This document shows positions 1 to 63,569 of a stretch of 64,000 nucleotides of DNA, piece by piece (the stretch's first letter is position 1; the number at the start of each line of letters is the position of its first letter). Source of the DNA: an uncultured Gammaproteobacteria bacterium (GTDB lineage: Bacteria > Patescibacteriota > Microgenomatia > Daviesbacterales > UBA10151); the NCBI GenBank assembly GCA_964360965.1, contig CAYHYM010000001.1, forward strand, positions 8,878 through 72,877, read 5' to 3'. The position numbers were made by a program, and so were the translations under genes. Below the pieces are notes generated by a model. The model was not told the DNA's origin, searched no databases, and saw only the letters and a program-made list of their open reading frames with translations.

Positions 1-740
1 TTGATGAGATGCCAAAAGGCAGACCTCAAATAAAAACTTTTCTGGTCCCGGAGAAAAAAAGAGCGGACGGATACAAATTTATAGAAAAAAAGATCAAGAT
101 GGGTGATCAGGCCTACATCATCACTCCTTTGATTGAGCCGTCGGAGACACTGACCACAGTAAAGGCAGCCAAGATAGAATTCGTGCGGCTAAAAAAGATT
201 TTTCCTACTCTTACTTTGGGCCTTTTACATGGCAGGATGAAAGCCAAAGATAAAGAACAAGTTCTTAAAGACTTCCGATCTGGCCACATCCACATTTTAG
301 TGTCCACCTCAGTTGTTGAGGTTGGCATGGATATCCCCAATGCCACCATTATGGTAATTGAAGGCGCTGAAAGATTTGGTTTGGCTCAACTTCATCAATT
401 AAGAGGCAGAATTGGTAGAGGCACAAAAACCTCTTACTGCCTAGTCTACACATCCGGGGTGTCAACTGATGATAGGCGGCGGCTAAAATATTTGGAAACC
501 ACCTTTGATGGGCTGAAATTGGCTGAGCTAGACTTAAAAATTCGCGGCTCCGGGGAAATTTTTGGCACCAGACAATCCGGCAGGTTTGAATTCAAAATTG
601 CCTCTTTATCCAATTTGATAATGGTAGAAAAAACCAAAGCTGCTGCCCAAAAGTTACTTTCAGACAATCCTTCTCTTGACAAACATCCGCAAATAAAGAG
701 AAAATTGGAACAACTTGCGTCAAATGTGATGCCGGATTGA
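1..740 (+). CDS. recG: ATP-dependent DNA helicase RecG, C-terminal part (5' end outside window)
   Basis: Frame is open from the window start. Helicase C-terminal motifs present: HGRMKAKDKEQV, ILVSTSVVEVGMDIPNATIMVIEGAERFGLAQLHQLRGRIGRG. Confidence 0.8.
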   Translation, partial: DEMPKGRPQIKTFLVPEKKRADGYKFIEKKIKMGDQAYIITPLIEPSETLTTVKAAKIEFVRLKKIFPTLTLGLLHGRMKAKDKEQVLKDFRSGHIHILVSTSVVEVGMDIPNATIMVIEGAERFGLAQLHQLRGRIGRGTKTSYCLVYTSGVSTDDRRRLKYLETTFDGLKLAELDLKIRGSGEIFGTRQSGRFEFKIASLSNLIMVEKTKAAAQKLLSDNPSLDKHPQIKRKLEQLASNVMPD

Positions 741-775
741 CGCTTTGCGTCATCCCGCACTTGACAAAGGAAGCT

Positions 776-976
776 ATGCCTGGAGAACCAAAAAAAAGAC
801 ATTCAAAGAGTCGAAAGAGAATAAGAAGGGCTGCCATAAAACTGGTGGCAGCTTCTTTAATCGTCTGTAAAAATTGCGGCCAAAAAAGTCTGCCTCACAT
901 GGTTTGTAAAGAATGTGGATTTTATGGTGGGAAAGCTGTTATCAAAAAAAAGATATCCGTCACTAAAGTAAAGTAA
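776..976 (+). CDS. rpmF: 50S ribosomal protein L32
   Basis: PKKRHSKSRKRIRR N-terminus and CxxC...CxxC zinc ribbon. AGGAAG RBS lies 6 nt before the internal ATG; the ORF-track start at 737 is likely too early. Confidence 0.8.
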   Translation: MPGEPKKRHSKSRKRIRRAAIKLVAASLIVCKNCGQKSLPHMVCKECGFYGGKAVIKKKISVTKVK

Positions 977-1341
977 TGAAGACAGCCAGGGATCCCAGAC
1001 ATCTAAAACGCATCCATCTGATAAAACAACTTTTTTCCTGGGATTTTAACCAACAGGGGGAAGCTGGAGGACAAATTAAAGATATTACCAGACACTTAAA
1101 AAAAATAGACCACCTCATTTTGGAATCAGCCCCTCAAAGACCGCTAAAACAGATCAATAAAATAGATCTGGCTATCTTGCGTCTGGCTATTTTTGAGTTA
1201 ATAATTAAAAAAAATACCCCCATAAAAGTGGTGGTGGATGAAGCGGTTGAACTGGGAAAACAATTTGGATCAGCTGCCTCCAGCTCATTTGTCAACGGGG
1301 TATTGGGAACTTTAATAGAAAAGGAAGACATAAAAACTTGA
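976..1341 (+). CDS. nusB: transcription antitermination factor NusB
   Basis: NusB-like pattern AILRLAIFELI...VVVDEAVELGKQFG...FVNGVL. ATG overlaps the rpmF stop. Confidence 0.75.
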   Translation: MKTARDPRHLKRIHLIKQLFSWDFNQQGEAGGQIKDITRHLKKIDHLILESAPQRPLKQINKIDLAILRLAIFELIIKKNTPIKVVVDEAVELGKQFGSAASSSFVNGVLGTLIEKEDIKT

Positions 1342-1577
1342 ATCAAATAAACGAGGCTGAAATTATTAAAACTATAGCCGATCATCTGGGTGTGTCTTGG
1401 GAAGACATCAGCCGCAGCACCAATCTTTCGGATGATCTAACCTTGGGACAAATAGAGCTAAATGATCTACTACTGGCTCTTTCTCAAAAATTTAACGTGG
1501 AATTTGATCCGCAAGATCTGGAAGATTTGCAGACTGTTGATGACCTGATAGTTTTGGTGGAGGATAACTTATTGTGA
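1338..1577 (+). CDS. acyl carrier protein-like small acidic protein lacking the canonical DSL serine
   Basis: Helix II aligns to ACP (ELNDLLLALSQKF vs TVELVMALEEEF). The phosphopantetheine serine position reads Q (DLTLGQIE vs DLGADSLD). Position immediately upstream of rnc matches the Firmicutes acpP-rnc synteny. Confidence 0.55.
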   Translation: MNQINEAEIIKTIADHLGVSWEDISRSTNLSDDLTLGQIELNDLLLALSQKFNVEFDPQDLEDLQTVDDLIVLVEDNLL

Positions 1578-2257
1578 GAAATAACAATCTGCAAAATCTG
1601 CAACAACTTTTGGGAATAAATTTTAAAAATTTATATCTTTTACAAACAGCCTTTATTCACCGCTCATTCCTCAATGAAGTTAAGAGTAATCTTTCATCAA
1701 ATGAAAGAATGGAATTTTTGGGGGATGCGGTGTTATCTTTTATCATCTCATCCTATCTTTTTAAAATAAGACCCAAGGATACCGAAGGGGATTTAACAAA
1801 TCTCCGCTCTTTTATTGTCAAAACAGACTCCCTGGCCAAAGCAGCCAGTAAGCTAAACTTGGGAGAGTACCTTAAATTGTCAAAAGGAGAGGAGTCCTCA
1901 GGAGGAAGAGCAAGTATTCAACTTTTGGCCAATACTTATGAGGCCCTGCTGGGAGCAGTTTATTTGGATGGGGGCCTGGAGATGGCCCAAAAAATGGTGG
2001 AAAGAACACTGCTGCCAAATTTTAGGGATGAGCTCAAAATTGGCCCGCCCAAAGATGCCAAATCTGCCCTGCAGGAGATAACCCAGGAGCGTTTTAAAAA
2101 ATCACCATACTATAAAATTTTAAAAACTTCCGGCCCTGACCATGCCAAAACTTTTATGGTGGGAGTTTATATTAATGGAAAAATGATGGGGCAGGGCCAG
2201 GGAACCTCCAAACAAGAGGGGGAGGATAAAGCAGCCCAGAAAGCTTTAAAAAATTAG
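1574..2257 (+). CDS. rnc: ribonuclease III
   Basis: RNase III signature ERMEFLGDAVL plus a C-terminal dsRBD. Non-ATG (GTG) start. Confidence 0.9.
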   Translation: MRNNNLQNLQQLLGINFKNLYLLQTAFIHRSFLNEVKSNLSSNERMEFLGDAVLSFIISSYLFKIRPKDTEGDLTNLRSFIVKTDSLAKAASKLNLGEYLKLSKGEESSGGRASIQLLANTYEALLGAVYLDGGLEMAQKMVERTLLPNFRDELKIGPPKDAKSALQEITQERFKKSPYYKILKTSGPDHAKTFMVGVYINGKMMGQGQGTSKQEGEDKAAQKALKN

Positions 2258-2275
2258 CTAAATAAATTTCCACCG

Positions 2276-2304
2276 TTGACGCATGAGTAACTTTCAGATA
2301 TACT
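2276..2304 (+). promoter_or_regulatory. sigma70-like promoter of rpsP (TTGACG -35, 17-nt spacer, TATACT -10), predicted leaderless transcript
   Basis: TTGACG at 2276-2281 and TATACT at 2299-2304. The ATG at 2312 is 7 nt after the -10 and has no Shine-Dalgarno sequence. Confidence 0.45.
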
Positions 2305-2311
2305 TAATCTC

Positions 2312-2734
2312 ATGCTTAAGATAAGACTAATGAGGATTGGAGCCAAAAAAAGGCCATTTTATAGGATAGTGGTGGTTGATTCACGGGCCAAAAGGACTGG
2401 GGGGTATATTGAGCTTTTGGGAACTTATAATCCATTAACCGAACCCAAAGAGATCAAATTAAAACAGGATCGGATTAACCATTGGCTAAAGCAAGGAGCC
2501 CAACCCTCAGATGGATTTTTAAGAATAACCGGTAAAGCACCTCAAAGACCTCCCAGAAAGCCTAAGAAGGAGAAAAAAGAAGAGTCTTCGGCTGTCAGTC
2601 CTCAGCCATCAGATAAAACAAAGGAAAAGCCACAAGATTCGGAAGAGACGGCGAAGTCAAGTGAGTCAGAAGCAACTGGTGAAGTTGAGAGTGCTCCTGA
2701 GACAAAGGAAAAAGACAATGAAAGACCTTCTTAA
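2312..2734 (+). CDS. rpsP: 30S ribosomal protein S16 with K/E/S-rich C-terminal extension
   Basis: [34 protein letters not shown] is a canonical S16 N-terminus. Confidence 0.85.
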
Positions 2735-3011
2735 TTATATTATTACCAATCTTGTTTCCAAACCTGAAGCTGTTGCTATTGAGGAACAAAAGGATAATGG
2801 CCAGGTTAATTTAAACCTATCAGTTGACCCCTCTGATATGGGCATGGTGATTGGCAAAGGGGGACAGACTATCAGGGCCATCCGCAAACTTTTGGCTGTC
2901 AGGGCCATAGCGGAAAATGTCATGGTAAATCTAAAATTAAATGAGCCTGTAGGAGCCCCACAAGAGATTGCCACCCTTCGAACCGCTCAGGGTAAACTGT
3001 CCTCGCAATGA
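2718..3011 (+). CDS. KH-domain RNA-binding protein (YlqC/UPF0109-like)
   Basis: [21 protein letters not shown] loop. Conserved position between rpsP and trmD. Internal ATG start chosen. Confidence 0.65.
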
Positions 3012-3015
3012 CGTC

Positions 3016-3735
3016 ATGAAAATTTCCATCATCACCCTTTTTTCAGAAGTTTTTGAGCCCATTTTAAACTCTTCCATTTTAAAACGAGCACAAAAAAAGG
3101 GCTTGGTGGAATTTGAACTTATTAACCTCCGTGACTTTGGAGAAGGAAAACACAAAGTGGTTGATGATCGACCATATGGTGGAGGAGCGGGCATGGTACT
3201 CAGAACTGACATTTTGGCTAAAGCTGTAAAATCGTTAGATCGTTTTGTCATTCATTCGTCAAACGAAAATGCGAAAAAGCGATATAAACGACAATTAATT
3301 TTAACTTCAGCATCAGGTAAACCTTATAAGCAGGAAATAGCCAGGAAACTTTCTCAACTCGATCATCTAATCATAGTCTGTGGCCATTATGAAGGAGTGG
3401 ACCAAAGATTTATAGAAAAGTACGTTGATAGGGAAATAAGTATCGGGGATTATATTTTAACAGGAGGTGAGATTCCCGCCATGGTCATTGTGGATTCCAT
3501 AGTCAGACTGATCCCGGGAGTCCTGGAAAAGAAAGAAGCAACAGTTAATGAATCCTTTACAGAAAATATTCTAGAAGGACCCCAATATACAAGACCAGAA
3601 GAGTTTGAAGGATCAAAAGTCCCCAAAATCCTCCTTTCCGGGAATCATCAAGAAATAAAAAAATGGAGACAAGAACAAGCTATTAAAAAAACCAAAAAAA
3701 TAAGACCGGATTTATTACGAGATAAAAGTTCGTAG
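3016..3735 (+). CDS. trmD: tRNA (guanine37-N1)-methyltransferase
   Basis: MKISIITLFSEVFEP...DDRPYGGGAGMVL and LTGGEIPAMVIVDSIVRLIPGVL match TrmD. Confidence 0.85.
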   Translation: MKISIITLFSEVFEPILNSSILKRAQKKGLVEFELINLRDFGEGKHKVVDDRPYGGGAGMVLRTDILAKAVKSLDRFVIHSSNENAKKRYKRQLILTSASGKPYKQEIARKLSQLDHLIIVCGHYEGVDQRFIEKYVDREISIGDYILTGGEIPAMVIVDSIVRLIPGVLEKKEATVNESFTENILEGPQYTRPEEFEGSKVPKILLSGNHQEIKKWRQEQAIKKTKKIRPDLLRDKSS

Positions 3736-3743
3736 TGGACGAT

Positions 3744-4442
3744 TTACTCAAATGGATTAACTTTGCCTTTGGAGACAAAAGATGGTTGAGCGGCCACTGC
3801 CTGAGATGGAAAATTTACTTCCAAGTTGGTCAGAAACTCTTCATCTTTTTCTGTTAATTTTGGCAAAGGAGCATCCAGATCCCCCAAAGATGAAGGCAGT
3901 GGGGCATAAAAAATATCCACACTCAAGGATACTTGAGACACCCCGGAGGCCCTGGCAGTGGTGATCTCAATCCCGGAAACCTTCATCACACGGACAGAAT
4001 CCTCAATACCTGATAAAAGTTGAGGCATCAGCGCGGATGGCCCTGACAGCTCCAGTTTGGTGGTAAAATCAGGCACTGCCTGAGCTGTCTGGGGCAATAT
4101 TGCTACTTGAAAAGAAACCAGCGTAAAACCGTTTTTTAAAACAATATTCTGCAGCGCGCCAATGATTTGCGGCAGTTCTTTATCAACAGGCAGTGACAAT
4201 AGAGATAAACTTACTTTTTTGGACAGCTCATCTTGGTCAAAACCTGAAAGATCTTGCGCCTTAACTTCCAAAAGGTAAGATCCTTGGGAAAGATTGAGAA
4301 TTGTTTTATTATCCAAAAGATAGTTTTTAATTTGAGGGAAGATTACAAAAACTATCAAAATTACAGAAGAGAAAGCCACCAGCAGGGGGAAAACTATCAG
4401 TTTATATTTTTGATAAAAATTTATTAAGGGCAAAATATTCAT
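3744..4442 (-). CDS. pilO: type IV pilus assembly protein PilO-like
   Basis: Single N-terminal TM followed by a periplasmic-type domain. Last gene of the pilM-pilN-pilO run. Confidence 0.55.
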   Translation of the reverse strand: MNILPLINFYQKYKLIVFPLLVAFSSVILIVFVIFPQIKNYLLDNKTILNLSQGSYLLEVKAQDLSGFDQDELSKKVSLSLLSLPVDKELPQIIGALQNIVLKNGFTLVSFQVAILPQTAQAVPDFTTKLELSGPSALMPQLLSGIEDSVRVMKVSGIEITTARASGVSQVSLSVDIFYAPLPSSLGDLDAPLPKLTEKDEEFLTNLEVNFPSQAVAAQPSFVSKGKVNPFE

Positions 4443-30787: not shown

Positions 30788-30806
30788 ACCTTTAGATTAA
30801 ACTTTC

Positions 30807-31109: not shown

Positions 31110-31142
31110 TAACTTACCCCCTTATAGATTAACCGACTCTTT

Positions 31143-32411: not shown

Positions 32412-32428
32412 TTTTCACTTTTCCCTTA

Positions 32429-34306: not shown

Positions 34307-34311
34307 ACTTT

Positions 34312-53832: not shown

Positions 53833-54128
53833 ACACCCTCCTGTCATCCTGAACCCGCCACAGGCGGGTGAAGGATCTAATCTTTGGATTTTAGCATAAA
53901 CTTCCTTCCTATGTCATCCCGACGAATGTCGGGATCCATAAATAATGTGTTTAGTTGGATTCTCCTCGAGTCTGAGCGACCTCGGAGTCGAAGACCTGCA
54001 TTTGCAGGAATGACAGAAGAAAATCCTTAATTCCCTCTCTATCTCTTTTTAACCATTCCACATTGGAATGAACAAGTTTTCTCTTTCTTACCACGATCGG
54101 AGGATATTTGGTATAATTATTTTTTAGG

Positions 54129-54174
54129 CCGAGGTGTTTACACCGAGCTTGCCGAGGTGTTTACACCGAGCTTG
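54129..54174 (+). repeat. two tandem 23-bp copies of GCCGAGGTGTTTACACCGAGCTT immediately 5' of tRNA-Leu, duplicating the tRNA 5' nine bases
   Basis: Units at 54129-54151 and 54152-54174, with the tRNA beginning GCCGAGGTG at 54175. Each unit holds a GGTGT-TT-ACACC inverted repeat. Confidence 0.75.
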
Positions 54175-54257
54175 CCGAGGTGCTGGAATGGTAGACAGGC
54201 CAGTCTCAAAAACTGGTGATGGCAACATCATGAGGGTTCGACTCCCTCCCTCGGTAC
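54175..54257 (+). tRNA. tRNA-Leu (anticodon CAA), class II with long variable arm, no encoded CCA
   Basis: Hand-folded. Acceptor GCCGAGG/CCTCGGT, D arm CTGG-AATGGTAGA-CAG, anticodon stem CCAGT/ACTGG with loop CTCAAAA, 15-nt variable arm, T arm GAGGG-TTCGACT-CCCTC. Close to E. coli tRNA-Leu in architecture. Confidence 0.85.
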
Positions 54258-54725: not shown

Positions 54726-55535
54726 ATGGGAATTGAAAACAGAAGCCATTTTGGCAGAGAAAGACTACGGATGCCAGATCGTGATTATAGCAGTCATGTT
54801 ATTGGTGATCGATGCCCGCTTTTAGGAGGACCTTCTGTTGAAGAAGATGTTGCAACCTTATGGAGAAACTTAAGATATGGTCGTTTTCTCAAAGAAGAAT
54901 TAAGAAAATTAAGGGAATATTTAAGTCTAAATTCGGGTTTGCCAGATAGTAGTGCTGACTTTAAAGCGGGAACTACTTTTGAGCCTGATGTCTACCCTCA
55001 TGGAACCATTATACTTGCAGGAAGAGAAGGAGACATATATATCACAACCAGAACCAGGGTTAGAAGGGAACCGTACAGGTCGCCTCTCCGAGGACCAGAC
55101 ATTGCTTCAGTTCTTTATGGAAGACCTGACTATTCAAAACCGGAATGGCAAGATAAAGGACTATGGTTAGAAAAAGAAGATTATAACGATAGGCGACTTT
55201 TCCGAGGCAACCATTTTGGAATTATTATTAGATTGCCAAATACTCCCCACAATCAAACAGTACTGCTACAAAATAGCTGGGAGGAAATTATGAAAGGCAA
55301 AGCGGACCTTAGATTTATTGAAGGTCAAGTGCCTATTAGTTCATGGAATCACTTAGTAACTTCGTATCTGGGGCCTGGATATAATCCTGATAAGAAAGTG
55401 TATACCCAAGATGATCTTTTCGATCGCTTTACTGGAATACAGATATTAGAGGTGGGAAAAGGTGTTAAAGAAGAAGTCAGAAGGCCCTTAGGAAGATTAT
55501 CTACCGCTATAAGACGGGCTTTGGGTTCTACATAG
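54726..55535 (+). CDS. hypothetical protein
   Basis: 269-aa ORF. No recognisable domain. Confidence 0.35.
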   Translation: MGIENRSHFGRERLRMPDRDYSSHVIGDRCPLLGGPSVEEDVATLWRNLRYGRFLKEELRKLREYLSLNSGLPDSSADFKAGTTFEPDVYPHGTIILAGREGDIYITTRTRVRREPYRSPLRGPDIASVLYGRPDYSKPEWQDKGLWLEKEDYNDRRLFRGNHFGIIIRLPNTPHNQTVLLQNSWEEIMKGKADLRFIEGQVPISSWNHLVTSYLGPGYNPDKKVYTQDDLFDRFTGIQILEVGKGVKEEVRRPLGRLSTAIRRALGST

Positions 55536-55543
55536 TACAATAA

Positions 55544-55882
55544 ATGAAAGAGGCTGGAGAGTTTCGAATATTCTGTCCTAAGGCTGAACAATTTATGCCT
55601 ATAAATGGTTCCTTTGAAGTTGACTTACCAGCTTTAGCCCGTGGAGAACAAATTTTTCTAGACTGTGACTATATGCGAGATGCTCAACCTGTCAGAGAAG
55701 GGAGATTTGGCTGTCTTAAAGTTAGTGCATCAGAAGTAAACCTTAATGATTTAATAACAGTTAATGGCAGTGTTAATGAAGAAAAAGGAACGCTTGATGC
55801 TCAGCTTAACTGTGGACATTGTGGGAATAATGTAGATCTATCATTTCCATATCAGGATGGTAATACCGATAGCCAGCAGTAA
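55544..55882 (+). CDS. hypothetical protein
   Basis: 112-aa ORF, 8 nt after the previous gene. Possible two-gene operon. Confidence 0.3.
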   Translation: MKEAGEFRIFCPKAEQFMPINGSFEVDLPALARGEQIFLDCDYMRDAQPVREGRFGCLKVSASEVNLNDLITVNGSVNEEKGTLDAQLNCGHCGNNVDLSFPYQDGNTDSQQ

Positions 55883-56265
55883 AATAATTATCAGAATCCA
55901 CCAAATATATTTTCTGGATGATTTTCTTTCCTCAATTGAAGAATAACTAAAAGGTTTCTTTTTCTCTTGCATTTTTAAAATCCATAATTTTTAGGTTAAT
56001 TTTAGCAGAAATTTAGATCAGAAGGTAGGGTAATTAGGGAGATTGGGGAGGTAAGGGAGATTGGCCCTCCTGCGCTGAAGCTTCGGTGGGTAAAGGTGAT
56101 TCAGGTTGTTGGGGTTGTTCAGGGAGATCAGGCGGATTAGATGGATCAGAAGGAGTAGAAGGAACAGAGTCTGATGATTGATTAGGGTCATCTGGCATAA
56201 ATTAAGTATACAACAAAACATTTCCTTCTTGACAAATATTATCAAACTAATATAATGATAATAGT

Positions 56266-56562
56266 ATGAACAGCACAATTTTACAAATCCCTGTTAATAA
56301 AAACCTTCGTGACCAAGCTGCTAGCAGAGCAGAAAGGATGGGTTTTTCTTCCCTTCAGGAGGTAGTCAGATTATTCTTAAATAAAATAGCCTTGGGAGAA
56401 ATTGATGTCAGCTTTGAGCCAACTGTGCAGTTATCCCCTAAGGCAATTAAAAGATATAACAAGATGATAGATGAGATTGAAGCTGGTAAAAATATTACTG
56501 GTCCCTTTACAGATGTAGGTGAAATGATGAAATATCTCCATGAAGGTAAAATTCCACGCTAA
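56266..56562 (+). CDS. RelB/DinJ-like antitoxin
   Basis: Small acidic protein with an RHH-like N-terminus. 3' end overlaps the toxin gene by 23 nt. Confidence 0.55.
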   Translation: MNSTILQIPVNKNLRDQAASRAERMGFSSLQEVVRLFLNKIALGEIDVSFEPTVQLSPKAIKRYNKMIDEIEAGKNITGPFTDVGEMMKYLHEGKIPR

Positions 56563-56806
56563 GTTTATTAAAAATTACCGAAAAAGAATTCTCAGTAATA
56601 AAAAACTTGATAATCAGGTCAAAATAAAAATTGAACAGTTTAAAATTAATCCTAATAATCCTATCTTAAAAGATCATAATTTAACTGGGACAAAGAAGGG
56701 ATTAAAAGCATTTTCACTTACTGGAGATATCAGAATAATTTATAGACCTTCTTCCGACAATGAAGTAGTTTTTATGGATATTGGATCACATAATCAAGTG
56801 TATTAA
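56540..56806 (+). CDS. RelE/ParE-family toxin (mRNA interferase)
   Basis: 88 aa: ...LKDHNLTGTKKGLKAFSLTGDIRIIYRPSSDNEVVFMDIGSHNQVY matches the RelE/YoeB family. Confidence 0.7.
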   Translation: MKVKFHAKFIKNYRKRILSNKKLDNQVKIKIEQFKINPNNPILKDHNLTGTKKGLKAFSLTGDIRIIYRPSSDNEVVFMDIGSHNQVY

Positions 56807-56811
56807 ATAAA

Positions 56812-57012
56812 TTATTTACTCCAGATTCCTCTTTTATTTTTCTTTGCTTCATCTTGGGCTACAAGTAATTCTTTCTGATATATCCAGGGTTTTTTGTGTC
56901 CCGCACCATACGGTACAGGACTATTTTGGTAGATAAGGGAGAAAGAAGTATTTTTAACATGAGGTAGGATATCTTCAAGTAAATTCTCTGAAACTGTAAT
57001 TAATTTAGACAT
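56812..57012 (-). pseudogene. chimeric remnant: repeated MSKLITVSENLLEDILPHVK module fused to a staphylococcal-nuclease-like C-terminal tail
   Basis: C-terminus KPWIYQKELLVAQDEAKKNKRGIWS resembles the end of SNase/thermonuclease. Too short for a functional SNase domain. Confidence 0.35.
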
Positions 57013-57063
57013 ATTTATTATATTACTCAATATTTAGTCTGATTTGCACTATTTATTCTCAAG

Positions 57064-57609
57064 TTGTATTATTCCATCATTATGGTAACTGAAGCTAGAC
57101 CATCAATAGAATTTTTTAGACAAAGCTTAACTCAGCAAAAGGATTTAGTGGTTGCGGGAGAGGTTAGCCGTTCAAGTGAGAACTGGGCAGAATGGAGAAT
57201 GGTTTTTGTAGCTCCAAAGAAACCTGCATATAGTCTAAGAGGAATTCAGGTTGTCTATAATAGATTCTTAAAGCAAGGTTTTAAAGTATGTAACAGCACA
57301 TATCAAGGTCAAGATTCTCTGCATTTGGGAGATATTGAATTTGATGAAGGTCAAATACCACAGGCAAGAAGATTACTTATATCTGTTTATCCAGATGAAG
57401 GTTTAGCAAGAGAAGCTTATGAGTGGGAGGCAGCATGGGTGGAAAGAGGATCTACATTTGAGCAGTTACGTGGGAAATATCGTGCAGAAGGAAGACAGGA
57501 GCCCTATGTGGGTTATGTTCCAAATGATGTTTTAAGAGAAAAATGGTTAAAACACCAAGTTAATCAGATTAAATCTGCTCTAACTTTTTGGAAGAGACCT
57601 GCAGCTTAA
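57064..57609 (+). CDS. hypothetical protein
   Basis: 181-aa ORF. No recognisable domain. Confidence 0.3.
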   Translation: MYYSIIMVTEARPSIEFFRQSLTQQKDLVVAGEVSRSSENWAEWRMVFVAPKKPAYSLRGIQVVYNRFLKQGFKVCNSTYQGQDSLHLGDIEFDEGQIPQARRLLISVYPDEGLAREAYEWEAAWVERGSTFEQLRGKYRAEGRQEPYVGYVPNDVLREKWLKHQVNQIKSALTFWKRPAA

Positions 57610-57687
57610 TATTCACTTCTTCAAAATAATCCCATAGTTTGATATATAGCTTCCTCTTGTATATAATCTCATTCAATAGTTAAACTT

Positions 57688-58890
57688 ATGGCCACTGAAC
57701 AAGGAATAATTAATTCTGGACAGGATTTTTTTAATTCACTTAGACTACGACATATTTATGGGGATCTGAATACAATTGAGGCTAAGATTAACAAGCGAAG
57801 CTTCTTGAGGTTAACTAATCCTGACCCAGACATTGTAGCAGCTGAAGCGGAAAGGATAATTCAAGCTGGACCACTCAGAGGCATTTCCTTTATTGAAGCA
57901 AATAAACAAGGTTACTTTGTTTATGAAGGTGCACCAGTTCCACTTGCTTGGTGGGCACCACATAGGTTCGAAAGACAGTTTCTTACCAGATTAGCTCATT
58001 CACTCACTGGTGAATTTCCTTTTATACTAGATGTTGCATGCGGAACTGGATTACTTGCTAAATTACTAGCAGCAGAAACAGATGCAAAAGTAGTTGGTTT
58101 AGATCCAGGAGAAATATTTAATGAGATGTCTGGTATTGATCGTTTACCAGATACTCCTGGCAATATATTGCTTAGAAAGAAAGATGTTTGGAAAGCAGTA
58201 AATACCTATGGTCCAAAGTATCCTTATCAATTAAACCGAGAAAGAAGAGAATTGTTAAAAAGACTAAAAAGGGAACCTGAAAAAGTATCTATTTTCTTAT
58301 CTCCAGAGTATCCTTACTCATCTTCTGCTAAAGAAGGGTTCAATCGACCCAATGAAGGAGTTGAGGAATTATCTGATGAAGTGAAAAGAATCCAGGAAAT
58401 AGCACCTCTTTACAAGGCTCCTTCCCCCATAGATTTAGTAATTTGCAGTTTTATGCCAGTTGGAGCTGATTTAACAGTACCTATCAGAGATGGCATTTAT
58501 CCTAAGGGTATTGTTTATGTTAGACAAATGCGTGGTGGGACCGGAACAGGTGATTATTTCTTATATGAATATCTAAATCCTGAAAGTTCTAAAAGATTAA
58601 GATACTCTCAGATAAGTTTTAATCCAGGTGAACATTACCAAGTAGTTGCCAGATGGCCAACCCCAAGTCAAAATAATTGGCATGCTAGTGAAACTAATAA
58701 ACTGCAAAGTCCTATGACTGCAGAAGTTGTGGTCCAACTGAGAAAGGATGTTGTTTTAGCCAAGACAGATAGGATCACTTGTCCAAGTTACCCTTGGGAT
58801 CAGGATATAGAAGATTTTCTTGGACAAGTATTGAGGAAGGAACTCTTTTTTGCTGGTATTGAACAAGCTACAAATTCCTTATTTGCTTAA
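57688..58890 (+). CDS. hypothetical protein with class I SAM-methyltransferase-like motif
   Basis: Motif I ILDVACGTGLLAKLLA followed by acidic VVGLDPGE. Confidence 0.45.
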   Translation: MATEQGIINSGQDFFNSLRLRHIYGDLNTIEAKINKRSFLRLTNPDPDIVAAEAERIIQAGPLRGISFIEANKQGYFVYEGAPVPLAWWAPHRFERQFLTRLAHSLTGEFPFILDVACGTGLLAKLLAAETDAKVVGLDPGEIFNEMSGIDRLPDTPGNILLRKKDVWKAVNTYGPKYPYQLNRERRELLKRLKREPEKVSIFLSPEYPYSSSAKEGFNRPNEGVEELSDEVKRIQEIAPLYKAPSPIDLVICSFMPVGADLTVPIRDGIYPKGIVYVRQMRGGTGTGDYFLYEYLNPESSKRLRYSQISFNPGEHYQVVARWPTPSQNNWHASETNKLQSPMTAEVVVQLRKDVVLAKTDRITCPSYPWDQDIEDFLGQVLRKELFFAGIEQATNSLFA

Positions 58891-58899
58891 TATTCACAA

Positions 58900-58949
58900 C
58901 TTCCACCCTTCGATACTTCGACAAGCTCAGTACTCAGGGTAAACCTGAA
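58900..58949. repeat. 50-bp deletion derivative of the 108-bp palindromic element at 60725-60832, 10 nt after a stop codon
   Basis: CTTCCACCCTTCGATACTTCGACAAG + CTCAGTACTCAGGGTAAACCTGAA; identical to the ends of the 60725 copy. Confidence 0.65.
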
Positions 58950-58977
58950 TTAGCTATTTTTGTGCTAGAATTGCTTT

Positions 58978-59349
58978 ATGGCTAAGAAAGTCATAAGCTA
59001 TGACCTTTTATTTGAAGTCAAAGATACTCTTGGTAGAAGGATACACACCACAAAAGATTACTGGCAGAAGATTAAAACCTTAAAGCATCGAGAATTAAAA
59101 TATGGTATTAATGAAGTTAAGACTACACTGACAAAACCAGATGAGATAAGAAGAAGTGTGACTGATTCTACTATTTTACTCTATGCACAAAGACAGCAAA
59201 ATTATGATATACTTATTGTGGCAGTTAAGGTTTTAAATGGTGAGGGTTTCTTAGTGACAGTTTATCAGACTAAGGATTATAAAAAGAAAGGAGAACTTAT
59301 ATGGCCAAAGCAAAAACAGAGGCTCGCCCTGAGCGAAGCCGAAGGGTAA
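58978..59349 (+). CDS. DUF4258-like putative toxin
   Basis: About 120 aa: HTTKDYWQKIKTLKHRELKY...ILLYAQRQQNYDILIVAVKV. Paired with a DUF2283-like gene. Confidence 0.45.
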   Translation: MAKKVISYDLLFEVKDTLGRRIHTTKDYWQKIKTLKHRELKYGINEVKTTLTKPDEIRRSVTDSTILLYAQRQQNYDILIVAVKVLNGEGFLVTVYQTKDYKKKGELIWPKQKQRLALSEAEG

Positions 59350-59588
59350 AAATTTATCTTGATCCTGTAGCAAATACCTTTAATATTTGGTGGGATGATC
59401 CTAAAAAGGCTTATTCCTCTGAAGAGGTAGATTCTCCAAACAGGAATGACGTAATTATTAAAGATAAACAAGGCAAACCAATTAGTTTGGAAGTGATTGG
59501 TATATTTCCAAGTGAACTAAATGTGGCAGAGAAGCTTAAAAGGACAATTGGAACTCCCAAAGAACCACTGCTTCTTCAATCAATTTAA
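59301..59588 (+). CDS. DUF2283-like small protein (putative cognate antitoxin)
   Basis: VKIYLDPVANTFNIWWDD...LEVIGIF resembles DUF2283. Overlaps the upstream gene. Confidence 0.5.
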   Translation: MAKAKTEARPERSRRVKIYLDPVANTFNIWWDDPKKAYSSEEVDSPNRNDVIIKDKQGKPISLEVIGIFPSELNVAEKLKRTIGTPKEPLLLQSI

Positions 59589-59746
59589 TCCTTAATCTTT
59601 TTCTCTAAAGGTGTTCCTTTAACATGAGGCAGGATATCTTTTAATAGATTCTCTGAGACTGTAATTAATTTGGGCATGACACAATTTTAGTCTATTAGAT
59701 CTGGACAAAATGATAAAGTTGTGTAAAATAAACTAAAGTTTAATTT

Positions 59747-60715
59747 ATGACTCAAGAAACAAGAGCAGCTTTACTATTCCCAGGTCAAGGATTACCTTCT
59801 AAAGATATTGTTGCATGTTATCAAAGACTCAATAGTATTGATTCTACTCATATACAACAAAGATTAGGACGAGCCCAAGATGCAATAAATAAAGTTCATG
59901 GAAGTGCTGCTTTTGATATTAATATTGCTTTGCAGGATGAAAAATCTCCAAGCTTTACTCAGACTTCTTTTGTACAACCTGTGGTTTATACCCTTAGCGT
60001 CCTTACCTCTGAAATTACTGATGCTCACGGTATTGCCAGAATTGCTCCCAGTTTTGTGGCTGGGCATAGTTTAGGTGAGTACTCTGCTCTAACCAGGGCC
60101 AAAGTCTTTGATTTTGAACAAGGAGTTGATCTTGTTACATACCGAGGTTTGGTAATGGAAGAGGCATGTCAGAAAACCAAAAGCGTTTTACTTAGAATCA
60201 GTGGGTTAGCAGAAGATAGAGTAAGGGAACTTTGTCAACCAGGAGGCACAAGAATTGCTGAAGTTGCTTTGATCAATGCTCCAACATTGATAGTGGTAGG
60301 TTGTGCAGCAGAAGCTGCAACTGAAGTAGATAGATTAGCCAAAGAAGCTGGAGCTAGAGGTGCAACTGATTTAGGAACAGCTGGGGCTTTTCATACCACA
60401 TTTATGGAAGAAGCAGCTGACAAATTGGATAAAAAACTATTTGAATATGACTTTAAACACCCAGAAATTCCAGTTGTAACTAATTTTACAGGAAAACCTA
60501 TATATCATAGTATGCAAGCACAAGATCATCTAATTCAAGGCATGATCAATCCAGTTCAGTGGGCTAAGGTATTAGAAACTTTACAGACATCAGGTGTCAC
60601 GGTTTTTGCTGAAGTTGGCCCTGGAACTTCACTGGCTGCTTTAAATAGGATTAACAATATTCCTGAGGATAGAACAATAAATGTTCTTAACTGGTTTGAA
60701 CCACGAGGTACTTAA
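59747..60715 (+). CDS. fabD: malonyl CoA-acyl carrier protein transacylase
   Basis: FPGQG, active-site GHSLGEYSALT, conserved R (TYRGL) and GAFHTTFMEEAADKL all match FabD. Confidence 0.8.
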   Translation: MTQETRAALLFPGQGLPSKDIVACYQRLNSIDSTHIQQRLGRAQDAINKVHGSAAFDINIALQDEKSPSFTQTSFVQPVVYTLSVLTSEITDAHGIARIAPSFVAGHSLGEYSALTRAKVFDFEQGVDLVTYRGLVMEEACQKTKSVLLRISGLAEDRVRELCQPGGTRIAEVALINAPTLIVVGCAAEAATEVDRLAKEAGARGATDLGTAGAFHTTFMEEAADKLDKKLFEYDFKHPEIPVVTNFTGKPIYHSMQAQDHLIQGMINPVQWAKVLETLQTSGVTVFAEVGPGTSLAALNRINNIPEDRTINVLNWFEPRGT

Positions 60716-60724
60716 TATGTACAG

Positions 60725-60832
60725 CTTCCACCCTTCGATACTTCGACAAGACTTCGACGGTGAGTCTTTCGACCCTGAGCTCAAGACCGAAGGGCTCAGT
60801 CGAACCGCTCAGTACTCAGGGTAAACCTGAAG
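60725..60832. repeat. 108-bp composite palindromic element (GTCGAAG/CTCAGTAC family) 10 nt after the fabD stop
   Basis: Internal inverted pairs TTCGACCCTGAGC/GCTCAGTCGAA and TCTTTCGACC/GACCGAAGGG. The ends are identical to the 58900 copy. Confidence 0.7.
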
Positions 60833-60979
60833 CTGTTATTAAAAAGAGATTAGAACCTACTTCATAATAAGCTGCTTCATTTCCTCCATCAGAATATGCT
60901 TTAGAGCCTAAAAATTTAAGTAGTTTGATATACAAAATATACCTTGTATTTTAACAATTAGGATAATAAGATAGATACC

Positions 60980-61336
60980 ATGGATGAAAGTAAACTTAAA
61001 ACAATAGTTGAAGAAGTGGTAAATAAAGCCGTGGATCCAATCAAAAAACAGCTTGAAGATCCTAAAACTGGTTTAGCAGCAATCAATAGAAGGCTTGATG
61101 GTGTAGGAGGACAGTTGAATGATCCAGATACAGGATTAAAAAGAATTAATGAGAGATTAGATGCTAATACAGCAGCAGTCGTGGAACTTGAGAGTACAAT
61201 AAAAGGCTACGCTGATTCATACCAGACAAATGATGCTAATATTAGGAAAGTGGAAAAAAGATTGGAAACTTTGGAAGAGGATGCAAGAGTAAATGTCCCT
61301 TCTGAGTTACAACTTGCTCCTCAATCTGACCTTTAA
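60980..61336 (+). CDS. hypothetical coiled-coil protein
   Basis: 118-aa ORF with repeated DP(K/D)TGL...IN(R/E)RLD heptad-like units. Confidence 0.3.
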   Translation: MDESKLKTIVEEVVNKAVDPIKKQLEDPKTGLAAINRRLDGVGGQLNDPDTGLKRINERLDANTAAVVELESTIKGYADSYQTNDANIRKVEKRLETLEEDARVNVPSELQLAPQSDL

Positions 61337-61350
61337 TGCAAAACCTTTCA

Positions 61351-62661
61351 TCAGTTGTGTTCAATATATGCTTTGTAGCCAACTAGCTTTTTGTTATCCC
61401 CAGAGCCAGAGTAGATATTTTTAACTCCGAAGGTTAAAAAGAGATCATCTTTGGAATAGGTAATGGTAGTACCAGTATTATCTTGGGAATTTAAAGTCTC
61501 TTTAAAGTTAGAATTGGTAAGTTGATTTGTATAGTAATCCAAAAAGGCTTGAGGAATTGATAATAATTGTTCAGATTCCAGATAAATACCTTCCTCCTCA
61601 ATTCTTCTTTTGCCTGAAGTAAAAAGTAATACCTTCTTTTGGGTTTTCTCCCATTTAATATCTGAGTAGAGTTTAGGGAGTCCCGTACCATTCGGTACAG
61701 GATTAAAAGTAGTAAGTCCGCCTGTTGGAGAAACAGGGCTAGGTGAAGGCGTAGTCTCAAAAGAGATAATCTCGGAGACCTCTATTAAATTAGGGGTGGG
61801 GGTTAAGTTGCCCTTAATTTGAACTTTCATGCCTTCAAAATCTGATAAGTTAACATTTTTTGATGCAGGGTTAAGGGTCCAGAGGGTTTTATTTTTATCA
61901 TTTGCTTGCAGGTAATATCCTGCTGAGGATTTTTGGATTATTCCCTGGGCAGTAATACCTCTGTGTAAGATGGGAGAGAAATTAGGGAATAGTTTACCAA
62001 GACCATAGTTTATACCTGATTTAAAACCTATCCCAAAACCTCCCAACCCCCCGCCCACTCCTGCCATGATAATAATTAAAGCTAAAACAGGGATTCTTAA
62101 GGTAATCATCTGTCTTTTGAGCAGTTTATTTAAAAAAGCTCTTAAATAAGTAACAGGATTAGTTAAGAAAAAACCAAACAAAGGAGGATCTTTTTTAGAA
62201 GAAGGTTGGGTATTTTGATTTATTTCTATAATGGGAGGAAGTCCCGCACCAGACGGTGCAGGATTAGGGGTATTTGGCTCGCCTGGTGGCGAAGCTGGGA
62301 CAGGAGGAGGGGTAGTCTGTTCAACCTTTTCTTCATGTTCAGGGATAAATCTTCCATGTTCATCTCTTTTTTGATGGGAAGCCACAGCAGAATGGACTAA
62401 GTTTTCTGAAACAGGATATTGAGGGTAATCAGGGATATTGGGAGAATTTGGTTCGATTACTTCGACTGTGCTCAGTACAGGTACACTCACCACAGGTGGG
62501 GTATTAGGGGCTGAAGGAGTAGGTGTTTGAGGAAAGGTTGGATTAACAGATTGTTGGTAGGGATTATCGGGATCTACAGGATTAGTATGAGGGTTAAAGT
62601 TTGACCCAAAAGAAGGAGGGGGATTATTTTGATCCGGAGGATCTTTAGGCAGATTATCCAT
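61351..62661 (-). CDS. hypothetical single-pass membrane protein with Pro-rich N-terminus
   Basis: Pro/Asn-rich N-terminal 170 aa, one TM, C-terminal domain. Carries an in-frame GTCGAAG-family repeat (62450-62499) encoding VPVLSTVEVIEPN. Confidence 0.4.
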   Translation of the reverse strand: MDNLPKDPPDQNNPPPSFGSNFNPHTNPVDPDNPYQQSVNPTFPQTPTPSAPNTPPVVSVPVLSTVEVIEPNSPNIPDYPQYPVSENLVHSAVASHQKRDEHGRFIPEHEEKVEQTTPPPVPASPPGEPNTPNPAPSGAGLPPIIEINQNTQPSSKKDPPLFGFFLTNPVTYLRAFLNKLLKRQMITLRIPVLALIIIMAGVGGGLGGFGIGFKSGINYGLGKLFPNFSPILHRGITAQGIIQKSSAGYYLQANDKNKTLWTLNPASKNVNLSDFEGMKVQIKGNLTPTPNLIEVSEIISFETTPSPSPVSPTGGLTTFNPVPNGTGLPKLYSDIKWEKTQKKVLLFTSGKRRIEEEGIYLESEQLLSIPQAFLDYYTNQLTNSNFKETLNSQDNTGTTITYSKDDLFLTFGVKNIYSGSGDNKKLVGYKAYIEHN

Positions 62662-62816
62662 GAAATTAGTATAGAACTAATTTGCAGATTAAAGCAATAA
62701 ATTGATTAGAGGGTGAGTTTAGGTGATGCAACTGTGTATATTGATAGGATATTAGTTTCTCCTAAAATTTTAAGCAGAACGTAAGAACGTAAATTTTAAA
62801 AATTGTACGTGGTCAA

Positions 62817-63353
62817 TTAAGGCTTCATTATGAAAGGCTCAAGGTCTTCTCTTTTTAAAAGAGTAGATTCTGAACAATTTGCTACCATAGCCACACTTGG
62901 CATGTGTGAGAAACCTACATATTCAACAAACTTACCTTTTTCTTTGGCTTTCTTAACTGCCGGAAGAAGATCTGTATCTGATGAAACTAAAGTAATATGG
63001 TCGCAAAGATTTTCATAGGTTGCGACCAAGATATCTACGGCTATATTGACATCTACTCCTTTCTCGTGCATTTTGCCTTTTGATTTTAATAAATATCCCA
63101 ATGAGTATCTGAATTTGTGCTTTTTTAAGTGTGCTAATAGCTTTTGTTGTTTGTCAAACAACCCTTGAACATGTTTTGTGCGATTAGTTCTGACTGCTCC
63201 CACATAATATATACACTCTACTAATTCTCCTTTTTTAGAAAGACTTTTGGCAAAAGAAGAAAAATTAAACGCTAACTCATTATGAAGTTTTAGATCTTTA
63301 AGCTTGAAGTAGAAGTTACTACCATCAATTAACACTATATAACGTTGTTTAGT
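62817..63353 (-). CDS. NYN/LabA-like (PIN-fold) domain protein
   Basis: VLIDGSNFYF...GVDVNIAVDIL...LVSSDTDLLPAV matches the NYN domain. Confidence 0.65.
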   Translation of the reverse strand, partial: TKQRYIVLIDGSNFYFKLKDLKLHNELAFNFSSFAKSLSKKGELVECIYYVGAVRTNRTKHVQGLFDKQQKLLAHLKKHKFRYSLGYLLKSKGKMHEKGVDVNIAVDILVATYENLCDHITLVSSDTDLLPAVKKAKEKGKFVEYVGFSHMPSVAMVANCSESTLLKREDLEPFIMKP

Positions 63354-63569
63354 CATTGAGACCAATTATATAGCAAAGCTTGGGATAAAAAAATCCTGCA
63401 AATGCCTTGCGGCCTTGCAGGAGAGTTAAGTAATTGTATACTAACAAAATATTGGCAATATGTCAAGAAAAAATTGTAGGTGAGCAGTTGGCAGTGAAAA
63501 CTTTATAGCAGAAACAAGAAGATATGTAAAGCAAATTGCATATAGGCTCGTAAATCACTATAATTGCAG

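What the first reader, a model, noticed from the sequence alone, without database searches (positions are those of the whole stretch)
1338..1577. ACP-like gene before rnc has lost the phosphopantetheine serine, while an intact fabD sits alone in the accessory island (59747-60715)
Synteny (ACP gene then rnc) and helix-II alignment identify an ACP homolog. The DSL serine position is Gln (DDLTLGQIE), so it cannot be 4'-phosphopantetheinylated. Yet a canonical FabD (GHSLGE, conserved Arg and His) is encoded 58 kb away without any other fab genes in the window. Either the ACP-like protein has a moonlighting role and FabD serves a non-FAS pathway (e.g. malonyl transfer to another carrier), or fabD is a horizontally acquired relic.
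Basis: partly seen in the sequence, partly recalled or inferred. Interest (0 to 1): 0.5.

Follow-up and report, generated by a model that had tools for sequence, protein, structure and literature searches.

The report
Serine-less acyl carrier protein relic
A tiny groundwater bacterium (Daviesbacteria, a group reported not to make fatty acids) keeps the gene for the fatty-acid carrier protein between two RNA-processing genes. The gene has lost the one serine that carries the cofactor, as in all 41 related species examined, so the protein must now do something other than carry acyl groups.

Summary
ORF 1338-1577 is a real ACP-fold protein: Pfam PP-binding scores above its cut-off, and the AF2 model matches solved ACPs at TM 0.8-0.89. 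Gln38 (CAA, 1449-1451) aligns without gaps to the phosphopantetheine serine.

This is not peculiar to this genome. In 41 species-representative genomes, mostly Daviesbacteria, the same gene sits in the same recG-rpmF-nusB-ACP-rnc-rpsP-KH-trmD block. It carries Pro in 40, Thr in 1 and Ser in none. Among 126 small relatives from a 1.84-billion-protein library, 91 lack the serine, with 12 different residues in its place.

The gene is under purifying selection (dN/dS median 0.21). It therefore looks like the positional ortholog of acpP/acpA, kept as a cofactor-free protein after fatty acid synthesis was lost.

The FabD-like gene (59747-60715) keeps its catalytic residues but scores below the FabD equivalog cut-off. 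It belongs to a Microgenomates-specific clade and stands alone with different neighbours in every genome examined. Here it lies in a low-GC3 block next to tRNA-Leu. No link between the two genes was found beyond co-occurrence in three genomes.

Whether acpS, a second ACP or fab genes exist elsewhere in the genome could not be tested.

The parts
776..976 (+). rpmF (ribosomal protein L32). The start is approximate; the mechanical ORF runs 737-976.
   Evidence: The homologous gene in L011 and L012 is annotated PF01783. It was found by tblastn in 39 of 41 related loci. In E. coli, rpmF heads the plsX-fabHDG-acpP cluster.
976..1341 (+). nusB. Its stop overlaps the ACP-like start by 4 nt.
   Evidence: PF01029, 85.9 bits. 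It lies immediately upstream of the ACP-like gene in 41 of 41 loci and in the distant loci L054-L056.
1338..1577 (+). ACP-fold protein of 79 aa, pI about 4.05, lacking the phosphopantetheine serine. It is the positional ortholog of acpP/acpA.
   Evidence: dN/dS median 0.21.
1449..1451 (+). Codon CAA, Gln38, at the position of the DSL serine. It is the first residue of helix II.
   Evidence: Gapless alignments, DSSP on the model, and the codon table of 41 orthologs: CCN Pro in 40, ACA Thr in 1.
1574..2257 (+). rnc (RNase III). Its GTG start overlaps the ACP-like stop by 4 nt.
   Evidence: PF14622, 124.3 bits, PF00636 and the dsrm domain. It lies downstream of the ACP-like gene in 41 of 41 loci.
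2312..3735 (+). rpsP, a KH-domain (KhpA-like) gene and trmD, the remainder of the conserved block.
54174..54257 (+). tRNA-Leu(CAA), at the left edge of the low-GC3 block.
   Evidence: ARAGORN; Rfam RF00005, 55.1 bits.
54726..63365 (.). Low-GC3 accessory block: hypothetical proteins, a YafQ-like toxin pair, the FabD-like gene and a NYN-domain gene. The right edge was not determined.
   Evidence: GC3 is 0.20-0.32 in all but one ORF of the block (a doubtful 86-aa ORF at 56018-56278 on the minus strand reads 0.55), against 0.370 +/- 0.058 for 59 core genes. Pfam hits. No PADLOC or PHROGs hits of note.
59747..60715 (+). Solitary FabD-like malonyl/acyl-CoA acyltransferase from a Microgenomates-specific clade.
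   Evidence: TIGR00128 198.4 bits against a cut-off of 260.9. The clade is P0014-P0067. Catalytic residues are invariant. No shared neighbours.
60711..60840 (+). Repeat element directly after the FabD-like gene. A copy also follows the 400-aa gene at 58886-58958.
   Evidence: the repeat finder families D1 and D4, 93% and 83% identity; alignment.

Best explanation
ORF 1338-1577 is the descendant, at the ancestral chromosomal position, of the housekeeping acyl carrier protein gene. The ancestral arrangement is rpmF...acpP as in E. coli and acpA-rnc as in Firmicutes.

In this CPR lineage the flanking plsX/fab genes are gone and the 4'-phosphopantetheine serine has been replaced: Pro in Daviesbacteria generally, Gln in this genome. 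The protein therefore cannot be converted to holo-ACP and does not carry acyl groups.

It is nevertheless kept under purifying selection, and its coding sequence overlaps nusB and rnc by 4 nt at each end. The most likely mode of action is as a cofactor-free, very acidic four-helix adaptor that binds and modulates a partner protein through helix II and a newly conserved helix IV/C-terminus (TVxDL[IV]xL[VI]ED). A precedent is apo-AcpP, which activates MukB as well as holo-AcpP does. The partner is most plausibly part of the rRNA transcription and processing or ribosome-biogenesis set it is co-encoded with (NusB, RNase III, S16, KhpA, TrmD).

- **Shown:** homology, fold, loss of the serine, conservation, selection and synteny.
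- **Inferred:** the adaptor mode of action (about 0.6).
- **Speculative:** the RNA-processing partner (about 0.25).

The former serine position now varies among residues common at helix N-termini (P, E, D, S, T, K, A).

The FabD-like gene 58 kb away is an independent, catalytically intact, patchily distributed accessory acyltransferase. Its acceptor is unknown and cannot be this protein.
For: **ACP identity and fold.** Pfam PP-binding scores above its cut-off. A PDB profile search returns only ACPs. The AF2 model with Foldseek gives TM 0.8-0.89 to ACPs.

**Serine replaced.**

**Lineage-wide loss.** 41 species genomes carry Pro in 40 and Thr in 1. All four Pro codons are used, so the residue is maintained at the protein level. 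The Ser-bearing cousins use TCA. Ser TCA, Pro CCA and Gln CAA are single steps apart.

**Wider family.** Of 126 small representative proteins, only 35 have Ser. That column has 2.87 bits of entropy and 13 residue types, while the flanking D and L columns have 0.5-0.6 bits.

**Selection.** NG86 dN/dS in 46 unsaturated pairs has a median of 0.21 and a maximum of 0.40. Identity of the orthologs to the window protein is 49-65%, comparable to NusB at 52-68%.

**Synteny.** The recG-rpmF-nusB-ACP-rnc-rpsP-KH-trmD block is present in 41 of 41 loci. Distant Asp, Ala and Glu versions that share only 18-27% identity with one another sit in the same context.

**Start/stop overlaps.** 4-nt overlaps in the window, and overlaps in L055 and L056 as well.

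**Ancestral position.** The E. coli order rpmF-plsX-fabHDG-acpP was read from NC_000913. The B. subtilis order recG-fapR-plsX-fabD-fabG-acpA-rnc-smc-ftsY...ffh-rpsP-khpA-rimM-trmD is from my own knowledge of that genome, not a tool result.

**Literature.** Apo- and holo-AcpP stimulate the MukB ATPase equally (PMC8602292). CPR and Microgenomates are reported to lack complete fatty-acid pathways (PMC7143001; PMC7242380).

**Absences in the window.** No acpS/sfp or fab genes and no second ACP-fold ORF.
Against: No partner or activity has been shown, and the adaptor idea is inference.

acpA-rnc adjacency predates the loss of fatty acid synthesis. The operon context may be historical rather than functional.

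Only 64 kb of the genome was visible. A canonical holo-ACP with AcpS elsewhere cannot be excluded, and an intact FabD-like enzyme hints that some carrier may exist.

About a quarter of the wider family still has Ser at the site, and some of those may be modified.

There is no expression evidence. dS is saturated for most pairs, so the dN/dS estimate rests on 46 of 861 pairs.
Confidence: 0.6

Rival explanations
1. A second, canonical holo-ACP with AcpS or Sfp, and perhaps a partial acyl-transfer pathway, is encoded elsewhere in the genome. The FabD-like enzyme loads that carrier, and the ACP-like gene here is a spare copy. This is compatible with the non-carrier reading of ORF 1338-1577, but it changes the meaning of the FabD gene.
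For: The FabD-like clade keeps Q14, S108, R133 (the malonyl-carboxylate arginine) and H216 invariant across 50 sequences. That points to a real acyl-CoA to thiol transfer. Ser-bearing small ACP-like proteins exist in the wider family, 35 of 126.
Against: No second ACP-fold ORF is present in the 64-kb window or within +/-10 kb of FabD-like in five other genomes. Across 731 kb of related DNA there is exactly one ACP-like gene per ACP locus. Published surveys report that CPR genomes lack ACP-processing and fatty-acid genes. No acpS was seen in the window.
Confidence: 0.25
2. The ACP-like ORF is a decaying relic of acpP with no remaining function.
For: The defining serine is gone. All NCBIfam ACP equivalog cut-offs are missed, for example TIGR00517 at 29.7 bits against 70.45. 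No fab genes are nearby.
Against: The ORF is intact in 41 of 41 species and in distant lineages. dN/dS has a median of 0.21. Helix IV and the C-terminus are nearly invariant within the close family (21 invariant columns in A2). The fold prediction is confident. The gene overlaps both neighbours at its start and stop.
Confidence: 0.03
3. The protein is still an acyl carrier, modified at another residue, and FabD-like loads it.
For: Both genes co-occur in three genomes: the window, CAZYPW01 and JACOYE01. Ser49 is at least 90% conserved in the close family.
Against: From established enzymology, known phosphopantetheinyl transferases act only on the serine at the N-terminus of helix II. Ser49 lies at the C-terminal end of helix II. 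It is not conserved in the wider family, where the column reads E 66 and S 23. No other Ser, Thr or Cys is conserved. The two genes are never linked.
Confidence: 0.03
4. The FabD-like gene is a recently acquired, non-functional passenger in an island.
For: Its GC3 is 0.198 against 0.37 for the core genes. It lies next to tRNA-Leu and is flanked by repeats and toxin-antitoxin-like genes. Its neighbours differ in every genome.
Against: The ORF is full length and the catalytic residues are invariant across the 50 aligned clade members, down to 35% identity (the clade has about 54 clusters). In one genome it sits beside secE-nusG-rplKA in a core region.
Confidence: 0.07

Closest known systems
Bacterial housekeeping ACP (E. 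coli AcpP, B. subtilis AcpA; Pfam PF00550, TIGR00517)
   Same: The same four-helix fold (TM 0.8-0.89), the same length and a strongly acidic character. It shares the DL motif before helix II, acidic residues at the helix II positions equivalent to D38 and E41, and the TV motif before helix IV. The chromosomal position matches: after rpmF as in E. coli, and before rnc as in B. subtilis.
   Different: It has no serine at the cofactor site, so it cannot be made holo. Equivalog scores are about half their cut-offs. There are no fab, pls or acpS neighbours. Its helix IV and C-terminus (DDLIVLVEDNLL) are conserved within its close family. It is inserted between nusB and rnc with overlapping start and stop codons.
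Cofactor-independent ACP partnerships (AcpP-MukB in E. coli)
   Same: ACP acts as a protein-binding activator, with apo- and holo-forms equally active (PMC8602292). This shows that the fold can work without the prosthetic group.
   Different: In E. coli the same protein is still the fatty-acid-synthesis carrier. Here the carrier function appears to be lost altogether. No MukB or SMC gene is in the window.
Mitochondrial ACP as a structural subunit (complex I NDUFAB1, the ISD11-NFS1 complex, the MALSU1-L0R8F8-mtACP module of mitoribosome assembly)
   Same: An ACP retained as a subunit of machines unrelated to fatty acid synthesis, including a ribosome-assembly module. This comparison rests on my own knowledge. 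NDUFAB1 and NFS1-ISD11-ACP chains do appear among the sequence and fold hits.
FabD, malonyl-CoA:ACP transacylase (TIGR00128), and trans-AT enzymes such as DisD
   Same: The full-length Acyl_transf_1 fold, the GHSLGE nucleophile elbow, and the Q11, R117 and H201 equivalents.
   Different: It scores below the FabD and MdcH equivalog cut-offs. It is 31% identical to E. coli FabD, and its best solved match is a trans-AT. It is solitary, with no fab, PKS or mdc genes and no carrier nearby. It belongs to a Microgenomates-specific clade and lies in a low-GC3 block.

Membership tests
Acyl carrier protein (PF00550 / TIGR00517) | Sequence match to the PP-binding profile above the curated cut-off | tested here: met
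   PF00550 scores 32.6 bits against 20.8. All NCBIfam ACP equivalog and subfamily models fall below their cut-offs, for example NF002148 at 40.5 against 71 and TIGR00517 at 29.7 against 70.45.
Acyl carrier protein (PF00550 / TIGR00517) | Four-helix ACP fold | tested here: met
   AF2 pLDDT 84.9, with helices at 3-17, 38-52, 58-61 and 67-77. Foldseek against the PDB: of the 50 matches listed, 47 are acyl carrier proteins (the other three are an ACP-HEPS2 integrative model and two FtsHi motor complexes); TMq 0.75-0.89.
Acyl carrier protein (PF00550 / TIGR00517) | Conserved serine (DSL) at the N-terminus of helix II as the 4'-phosphopantetheine attachment site | tested here: not met
   Gln38 occupies the position. 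It is Pro in 40 and Thr in 1 of 41 orthologs.
Acyl carrier protein (PF00550 / TIGR00517) | Conversion to the holo-form by AcpS or Sfp, and acyl loading | not testable with these tools
   No acpS or sfp was found in the 64-kb window. The biochemistry is untested.
Acyl carrier protein (PF00550 / TIGR00517) | Genomic association with fab/pls genes | tested here: not met
   No fab or pls genes lie in the window or in the 41 orthologous loci with +/-6 kb flanks. Only the ancestral flanks are kept, rpmF upstream and rnc downstream (plus knowledge of the B. subtilis gene order).
FabD, malonyl-CoA:ACP transacylase (TIGR00128) | Score at or above the equivalog cut-off | tested here: not met
   198.4 bits against a cut-off of 260.9.
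FabD, malonyl-CoA:ACP transacylase (TIGR00128) | Catalytic Ser-His dyad in GHSxG, the oxyanion Gln and the malonyl-binding Arg | tested here: met
   Q14, S108, R133 and H216 align to E. coli Q11, S92, R117 and H201. They are invariant in 50 clade members.
FabD, malonyl-CoA:ACP transacylase (TIGR00128) | A cognate holo-ACP and a type II fatty-acid-synthesis context | tested here: not met
   It is solitary in six genomes and shares no neighbours. No ACP-fold ORF lies within +/-10 kb. The only ACP-like gene seen in the same genomes lacks the serine.
Malonate decarboxylase epsilon subunit MdcH (TIGR03131) | Score at or above the cut-off, and mdc operon neighbours | tested here: not met
   174.8 bits against 297.9. 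No mdc genes are in the window.
Trans-acting acyltransferase of trans-AT polyketide synthases (DisD-like) | Association with a PKS gene cluster and its carrier domains | tested here: not met
   DisD is the best PDB sequence match, at 131.8 bits. No KS or PKS genes lie in the window or near the homologs.

The most novel reading that the evidence does not exclude
Across a large part of the CPR/Patescibacteria, the housekeeping ACP has been converted into an obligate cofactor-free subunit or regulator of the rRNA transcription and processing machinery it is co-encoded with (NusB, RNase III). This would reveal an ancient function of ACP that does not depend on phosphopantetheine and that was important enough to survive the complete loss of fatty acid synthesis. 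A further possibility is that the orphan FabD-like enzyme marks an uncharacterised, carrier-independent malonyl or acyl transfer in these lipid-scavenging cells.
Probability: 0.2. Interest if true: 0.8.

Novelty: new variant of a known kind. Interest (0 to 1): 0.6.

Why it matters
ACP is among the most connected proteins in bacteria, and it has been hard to separate its roles outside fatty acid synthesis from its carrier role, because the carrier role is essential.

This case is a natural separation-of-function experiment. The lineage belongs to a radiation reported to have lost fatty acid synthesis, and none was seen in this window. It has discarded the cofactor serine repeatedly, replacing it with many different residues. 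Yet it keeps the fold, the acidic helix II and the gene's place in a core operon under purifying selection. Finding the partner of this protein would show what ACP does when it carries nothing.

It also matters for annotation. These genes are labelled 'acyl carrier protein', and the orphan gene 'ACP S-malonyltransferase', in MAG annotations. That can make CPR genomes look as if they hold fragments of a lipid pathway that they cannot run.

Tried and rejected
- **The search for related loci with the 32-sequence alignment A3.** The closer alignment A2 was used instead, so the genome scan sampled mainly Daviesbacteria.
- **PADLOC and PHROGs scans of FabD-like and its island neighbours.** Only weak coiled-coil noise came back. 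The ACP-like protein hit a phage 'acyl carrier protein' PHROG at 27.6 bits. A defence-system or phage-cargo reading was dropped.
- **Promoter and terminator scan of 1-4000.** Counts did not differ from the shuffles, so it says nothing about operon structure. The 4-nt start/stop overlaps were used instead.
- **Pattern search for the post-gene repeat.** Zero matches, because I fixed the spacer wrongly. The repeat is documented.
- **Rfam scan of the whole window.** Only the tRNA was found.
- **Literature searches.** Searches for a serine-less ACP in CPR, Microgenomates or Saccharibacteria found nothing on point. A search for the B. subtilis gene order also found nothing, so that order is cited from knowledge.
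- **Shared neighbours of FabD-like across four loci by all-against-all BLASTP.** None were found.
- **Reading the serine loss as a sequencing or assembly error.** Rejected. The identical protein occurs on four independent contigs from two assemblies and two read sets, and a 91%-identical relative also has Gln.
- **An alternative genetic code.** Not indicated. The window's ORFs, called with table 11, give full-length matches to Pfam families.
Full report
**Source and context.** The window comes from a Patescibacteria (CPR) genome. The identical ACP-like protein lies on contigs from Hainich groundwater 0.1-um filter metagenomes. Its closest genomic relatives are MAGs titled Candidatus Daviesbacteria or Microgenomates. 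Pfam scans of the window's ORFs show a typical CPR gene set: a large type IV pilus cluster, gyrB (with an adjacent 843-aa ORF that looks like gyrA but was not scanned), cohesin/dockerin surface proteins, IS200-like transposases and toxin-antitoxin pairs. No fabH/F/G/Z/I, plsX/Y/C or acpS/sfp was found.

**1. Checking the observation.** The ORF at 1338-1577 (79 aa, TTG start) matches Pfam PP-binding above the gathering score, at 32.6 bits against 20.8. It falls well below every NCBIfam ACP equivalog cut-off, at about 30-40 bits against 65-106.
- A profile of the protein and 12 homologs, searched against PDB sequences, finds only acyl carrier proteins (best E 1.3e-10). The alignments are gapless across the DSL region.
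- AlphaFold2 predicts a confident four-helix bundle with pLDDT 84.9. Helix II begins exactly at residue 38.
- Foldseek matches solved ACPs at TM 0.8-0.89.
- BLASTP against E. coli AcpP, taken from NC_000913, is gapless and places Gln38 (codon CAA, 1449-1451) opposite the cofactor serine.

The protein is very acidic, with 18 D+E against 3 K+R and a pI of about 4.05.

The FabD-like ORF at 59747-60715 has the GQG, GHSLGE, Arg, His and NPVQW elements, which align to E. coli Q11, S92, R117, H201 and Q250 at 31% identity. It scores 198.4 bits on TIGR00128 against a cut-off of 260.9, and 174.8 on MdcH against 297.9. Its best solved relative is the trans-AT DisD. 'Canonical' is too strong a word for it.

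**2. The serine loss is a property of the lineage.** Thirteen proteins from the 5.8-billion-sequence search, the window's own among them (the others share 54-91% identity with it), carry Q, Q, P, P, P, P, P, P, S, S, S, S and P at this column. A scan of one genome per GTDB species found 41 loci. The residue is Pro in 40, Thr in 1 and Ser in none. The Pro codons are CCA 20, CCG 12, CCT 6 and CCC 2, so Pro is maintained at the protein level. The window's CAA is one step from CCA. The Ser-bearing cousin P0011 uses TCA, which is also one step from CCA.

An exhaustive HMMER search of 1.84 billion cluster representatives returned 3377 hits. Among the best 150, 126 are small single-domain proteins. 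Only 35 of those have Ser. The rest have P 33, E 17, D 10, K 10, A 6, T 4, R 4, G 2, N 2, and H, Q and L once each. That column has 2.87 bits of entropy. The neighbouring D and L columns have 0.5-0.6 bits, and the helix II acidic positions stay at 1.2-1.5 bits. The residues now found there are largely those favoured at helix N-termini, which fits residue 38 being the first residue of helix II.

**3. The gene is not decaying.** In all 41 loci the ORF is intact. It lies in the block recG-rpmF-nusB-ACP-rnc-rpsP-KH-trmD, usually followed by pilO/N/M.
- Identity of the orthologs to the window protein is 49-65%, similar to NusB at 52-68% and a little below RNase III at 62-69%.
- Nei-Gojobori dN/dS for the 46 pairs with 0.05 < dS < 1.5 has a median of 0.21 and a maximum of 0.40. 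The closest pair gives 0.04.
- Very distant serine-less members sit in the same recG-nusB-ACP-rnc context: P0162 (Asp, on a 509-kb contig), P0280 (Ala) and P0206 (Glu). These three share only 18-27% identity with one another.
- Start and stop codons overlap by 4 nt at both junctions in the window. They also overlap in L055 and L056.

**4. What the gene is.** In E. coli the order is rpmF-plsX-fabH-fabD-fabG-acpP-fabF. In B. subtilis, from my own knowledge of that genome, it is recG-fapR-plsX-fabD-fabG-acpA-rnc-smc-ftsY...ffh-rpsP-khpA-rimM-trmD. The CPR block recG-rpmF-nusB-ACP-rnc-rpsP-KH-trmD is collinear with these, with the lipid genes and several others removed.

The ORF is therefore best read as the positional ortholog of the housekeeping ACP. 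It survived the loss of fatty acid synthesis that is generally reported for CPR and for a complete Microgenomates genome. It cannot be phosphopantetheinylated at the canonical site. No other Ser, Thr or Cys is conserved across the family.

**5. Most likely mechanism.** The protein most likely acts as a cofactor-free acidic adaptor that binds a partner. [quoted passage not shown] Helix II keeps its acidic positions, and helix IV with the C-terminus (TVDDLIVLVEDNLL) is nearly invariant in the close family. In the wider family an Asp, at the position where E. coli has Ala, is strongly conserved at 0.70 bits. This suggests a new interface. The operon points to rRNA transcription and processing or ribosome biogenesis as the partner's pathway. 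That step is inference only, because the acpA-rnc adjacency is older than the loss of function.

**6. The FabD-like gene.** About 54 clusters at 35-100% identity form a clade, some of them named Candidatus Microgenomates. Scores drop from 187 bits or more within the clade to 172 and below outside it; the named canonical FabDs that follow score about 150 bits or less at 32-35% identity. In an alignment of 50 members the catalytic residues are invariant.
- The gene is solitary, and its neighbours differ in each of six genomes: the window, L005, L007, L009, L057 and L058. In L057 it lies beside secE-nusG-rplKA.
- No ACP-fold ORF lies within +/-10 kb of it in the five other genomes. The window holds only the one ACP-like ORF.
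- In the window it lies in a block (54.7-63.4 kb) whose GC3 is 0.20-0.32 in all but one short doubtful ORF, against 0.370 +/- 0.058 for 59 core genes. The gene's own GC3 is 0.198. The block starts just after tRNA-Leu(CAA) at 54174-54257 and contains toxin-antitoxin-like genes and repeated post-gene elements.
- The 'accessory island' description is supported, 'relic' is not, and transfer among CPR organisms is plausible.
- FabD-like co-occurs with a serine-less ACP-like gene in at least three genomes: the window, CAZYPW01 (L009 with L051) and JACOYE01 (L057 with L017). The conserved ACP ortholog cannot be its acceptor. What it acylates is unknown.

**7. Limits.** Only 64 kb of this genome, and +/-6-10 kb around the homologs, could be read. 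Taxonomy of the distant serine-less members is not established beyond their Microgenomates-like synteny. No expression or biochemical data exist. The paper library yielded no report of a serine-less ACP in CPR, but that library is incomplete.

**8. Verdict.** It is a new variant of a known kind and of moderate to high interest.

Noticed in passing
window 54128-54257: An exact tandem repeat of 2 x 23 nt (GCCGAGGTGTTTACACCGAGCTT) lies immediately upstream of tRNA-Leu(CAA). The first 9 nt of each unit equal the 5' end of the tRNA. This looks like repeated partial duplication of the tRNA 5' end at the edge of the low-GC3 block.
   Followed up: partly
window 57596-57622, 58885-58958, 60711-60840; also 54389-54432 and 62449-62492: Three consecutive island genes (the 181-aa, 400-aa and FabD-like ORFs) end in the same sequence, GCTTAATAT(T/G)(C/T)AC..CTTC. 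Two of them are followed by a shared TTCGAC-rich element of about 75 nt (93% and 83% identity). Related 44-nt copies at 84% identity, 8060 nt apart, bracket the FabD-like gene. These could be cassette or att-like repeats, or a shared terminator. There is no Rfam match.
   Followed up: partly
window 11442-12119 (-) and 41180-41848 (-): Two paralogous IS200/Y1-transposase-like ORFs (PF01797). One sits in the middle of the type IV pilin gene cluster. A similar gene lies near the FabD-like gene in L058.
   Followed up: no
window 30807-31109 (-) and 31143-32411 (-): Adjacent ORFs share a nearly identical N-terminal stretch of about 65 aa (signal/anchor plus 'FIPKVEFVNDTGQVITETTNSNVKLKITKE'). The shorter one looks like a truncated duplicate (sequences printed).
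   Followed up: no
window 30233-36809 (-): A run of large secreted proteins with cohesin and dockerin domains and (SP)n linkers, a cellulosome-like surface architecture in a CPR genome.
   Followed up: no
window 2312-2734 (+): The rpsP ORF is 140 aa, with a long Lys/Glu/Ser-rich C-terminal tail. It overlaps the mechanically called start of the KH-domain ORF. Relatives show S16 genes of very different lengths, 68 to 183 aa.
   Followed up: no
window 57688-58890 (+): A 400-aa island ORF with only a weak SAM-methyltransferase glycine-loop match (E about 1e-3 to UbiE-type models) and no Pfam family above threshold. It shares its 3' flank repeat with the FabD-like gene.
   Followed up: partly
loci L013, L016, L021 and others: Many MAGs from the 'binchicken' co-assemblies are titled 'uncultured Gammaproteobacteria bacterium'. 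They nevertheless carry the Daviesbacteria-type recG-nusB-ACP-rnc block at 49-65% identity, so the record titles look like placeholder taxonomy.
   Followed up: no
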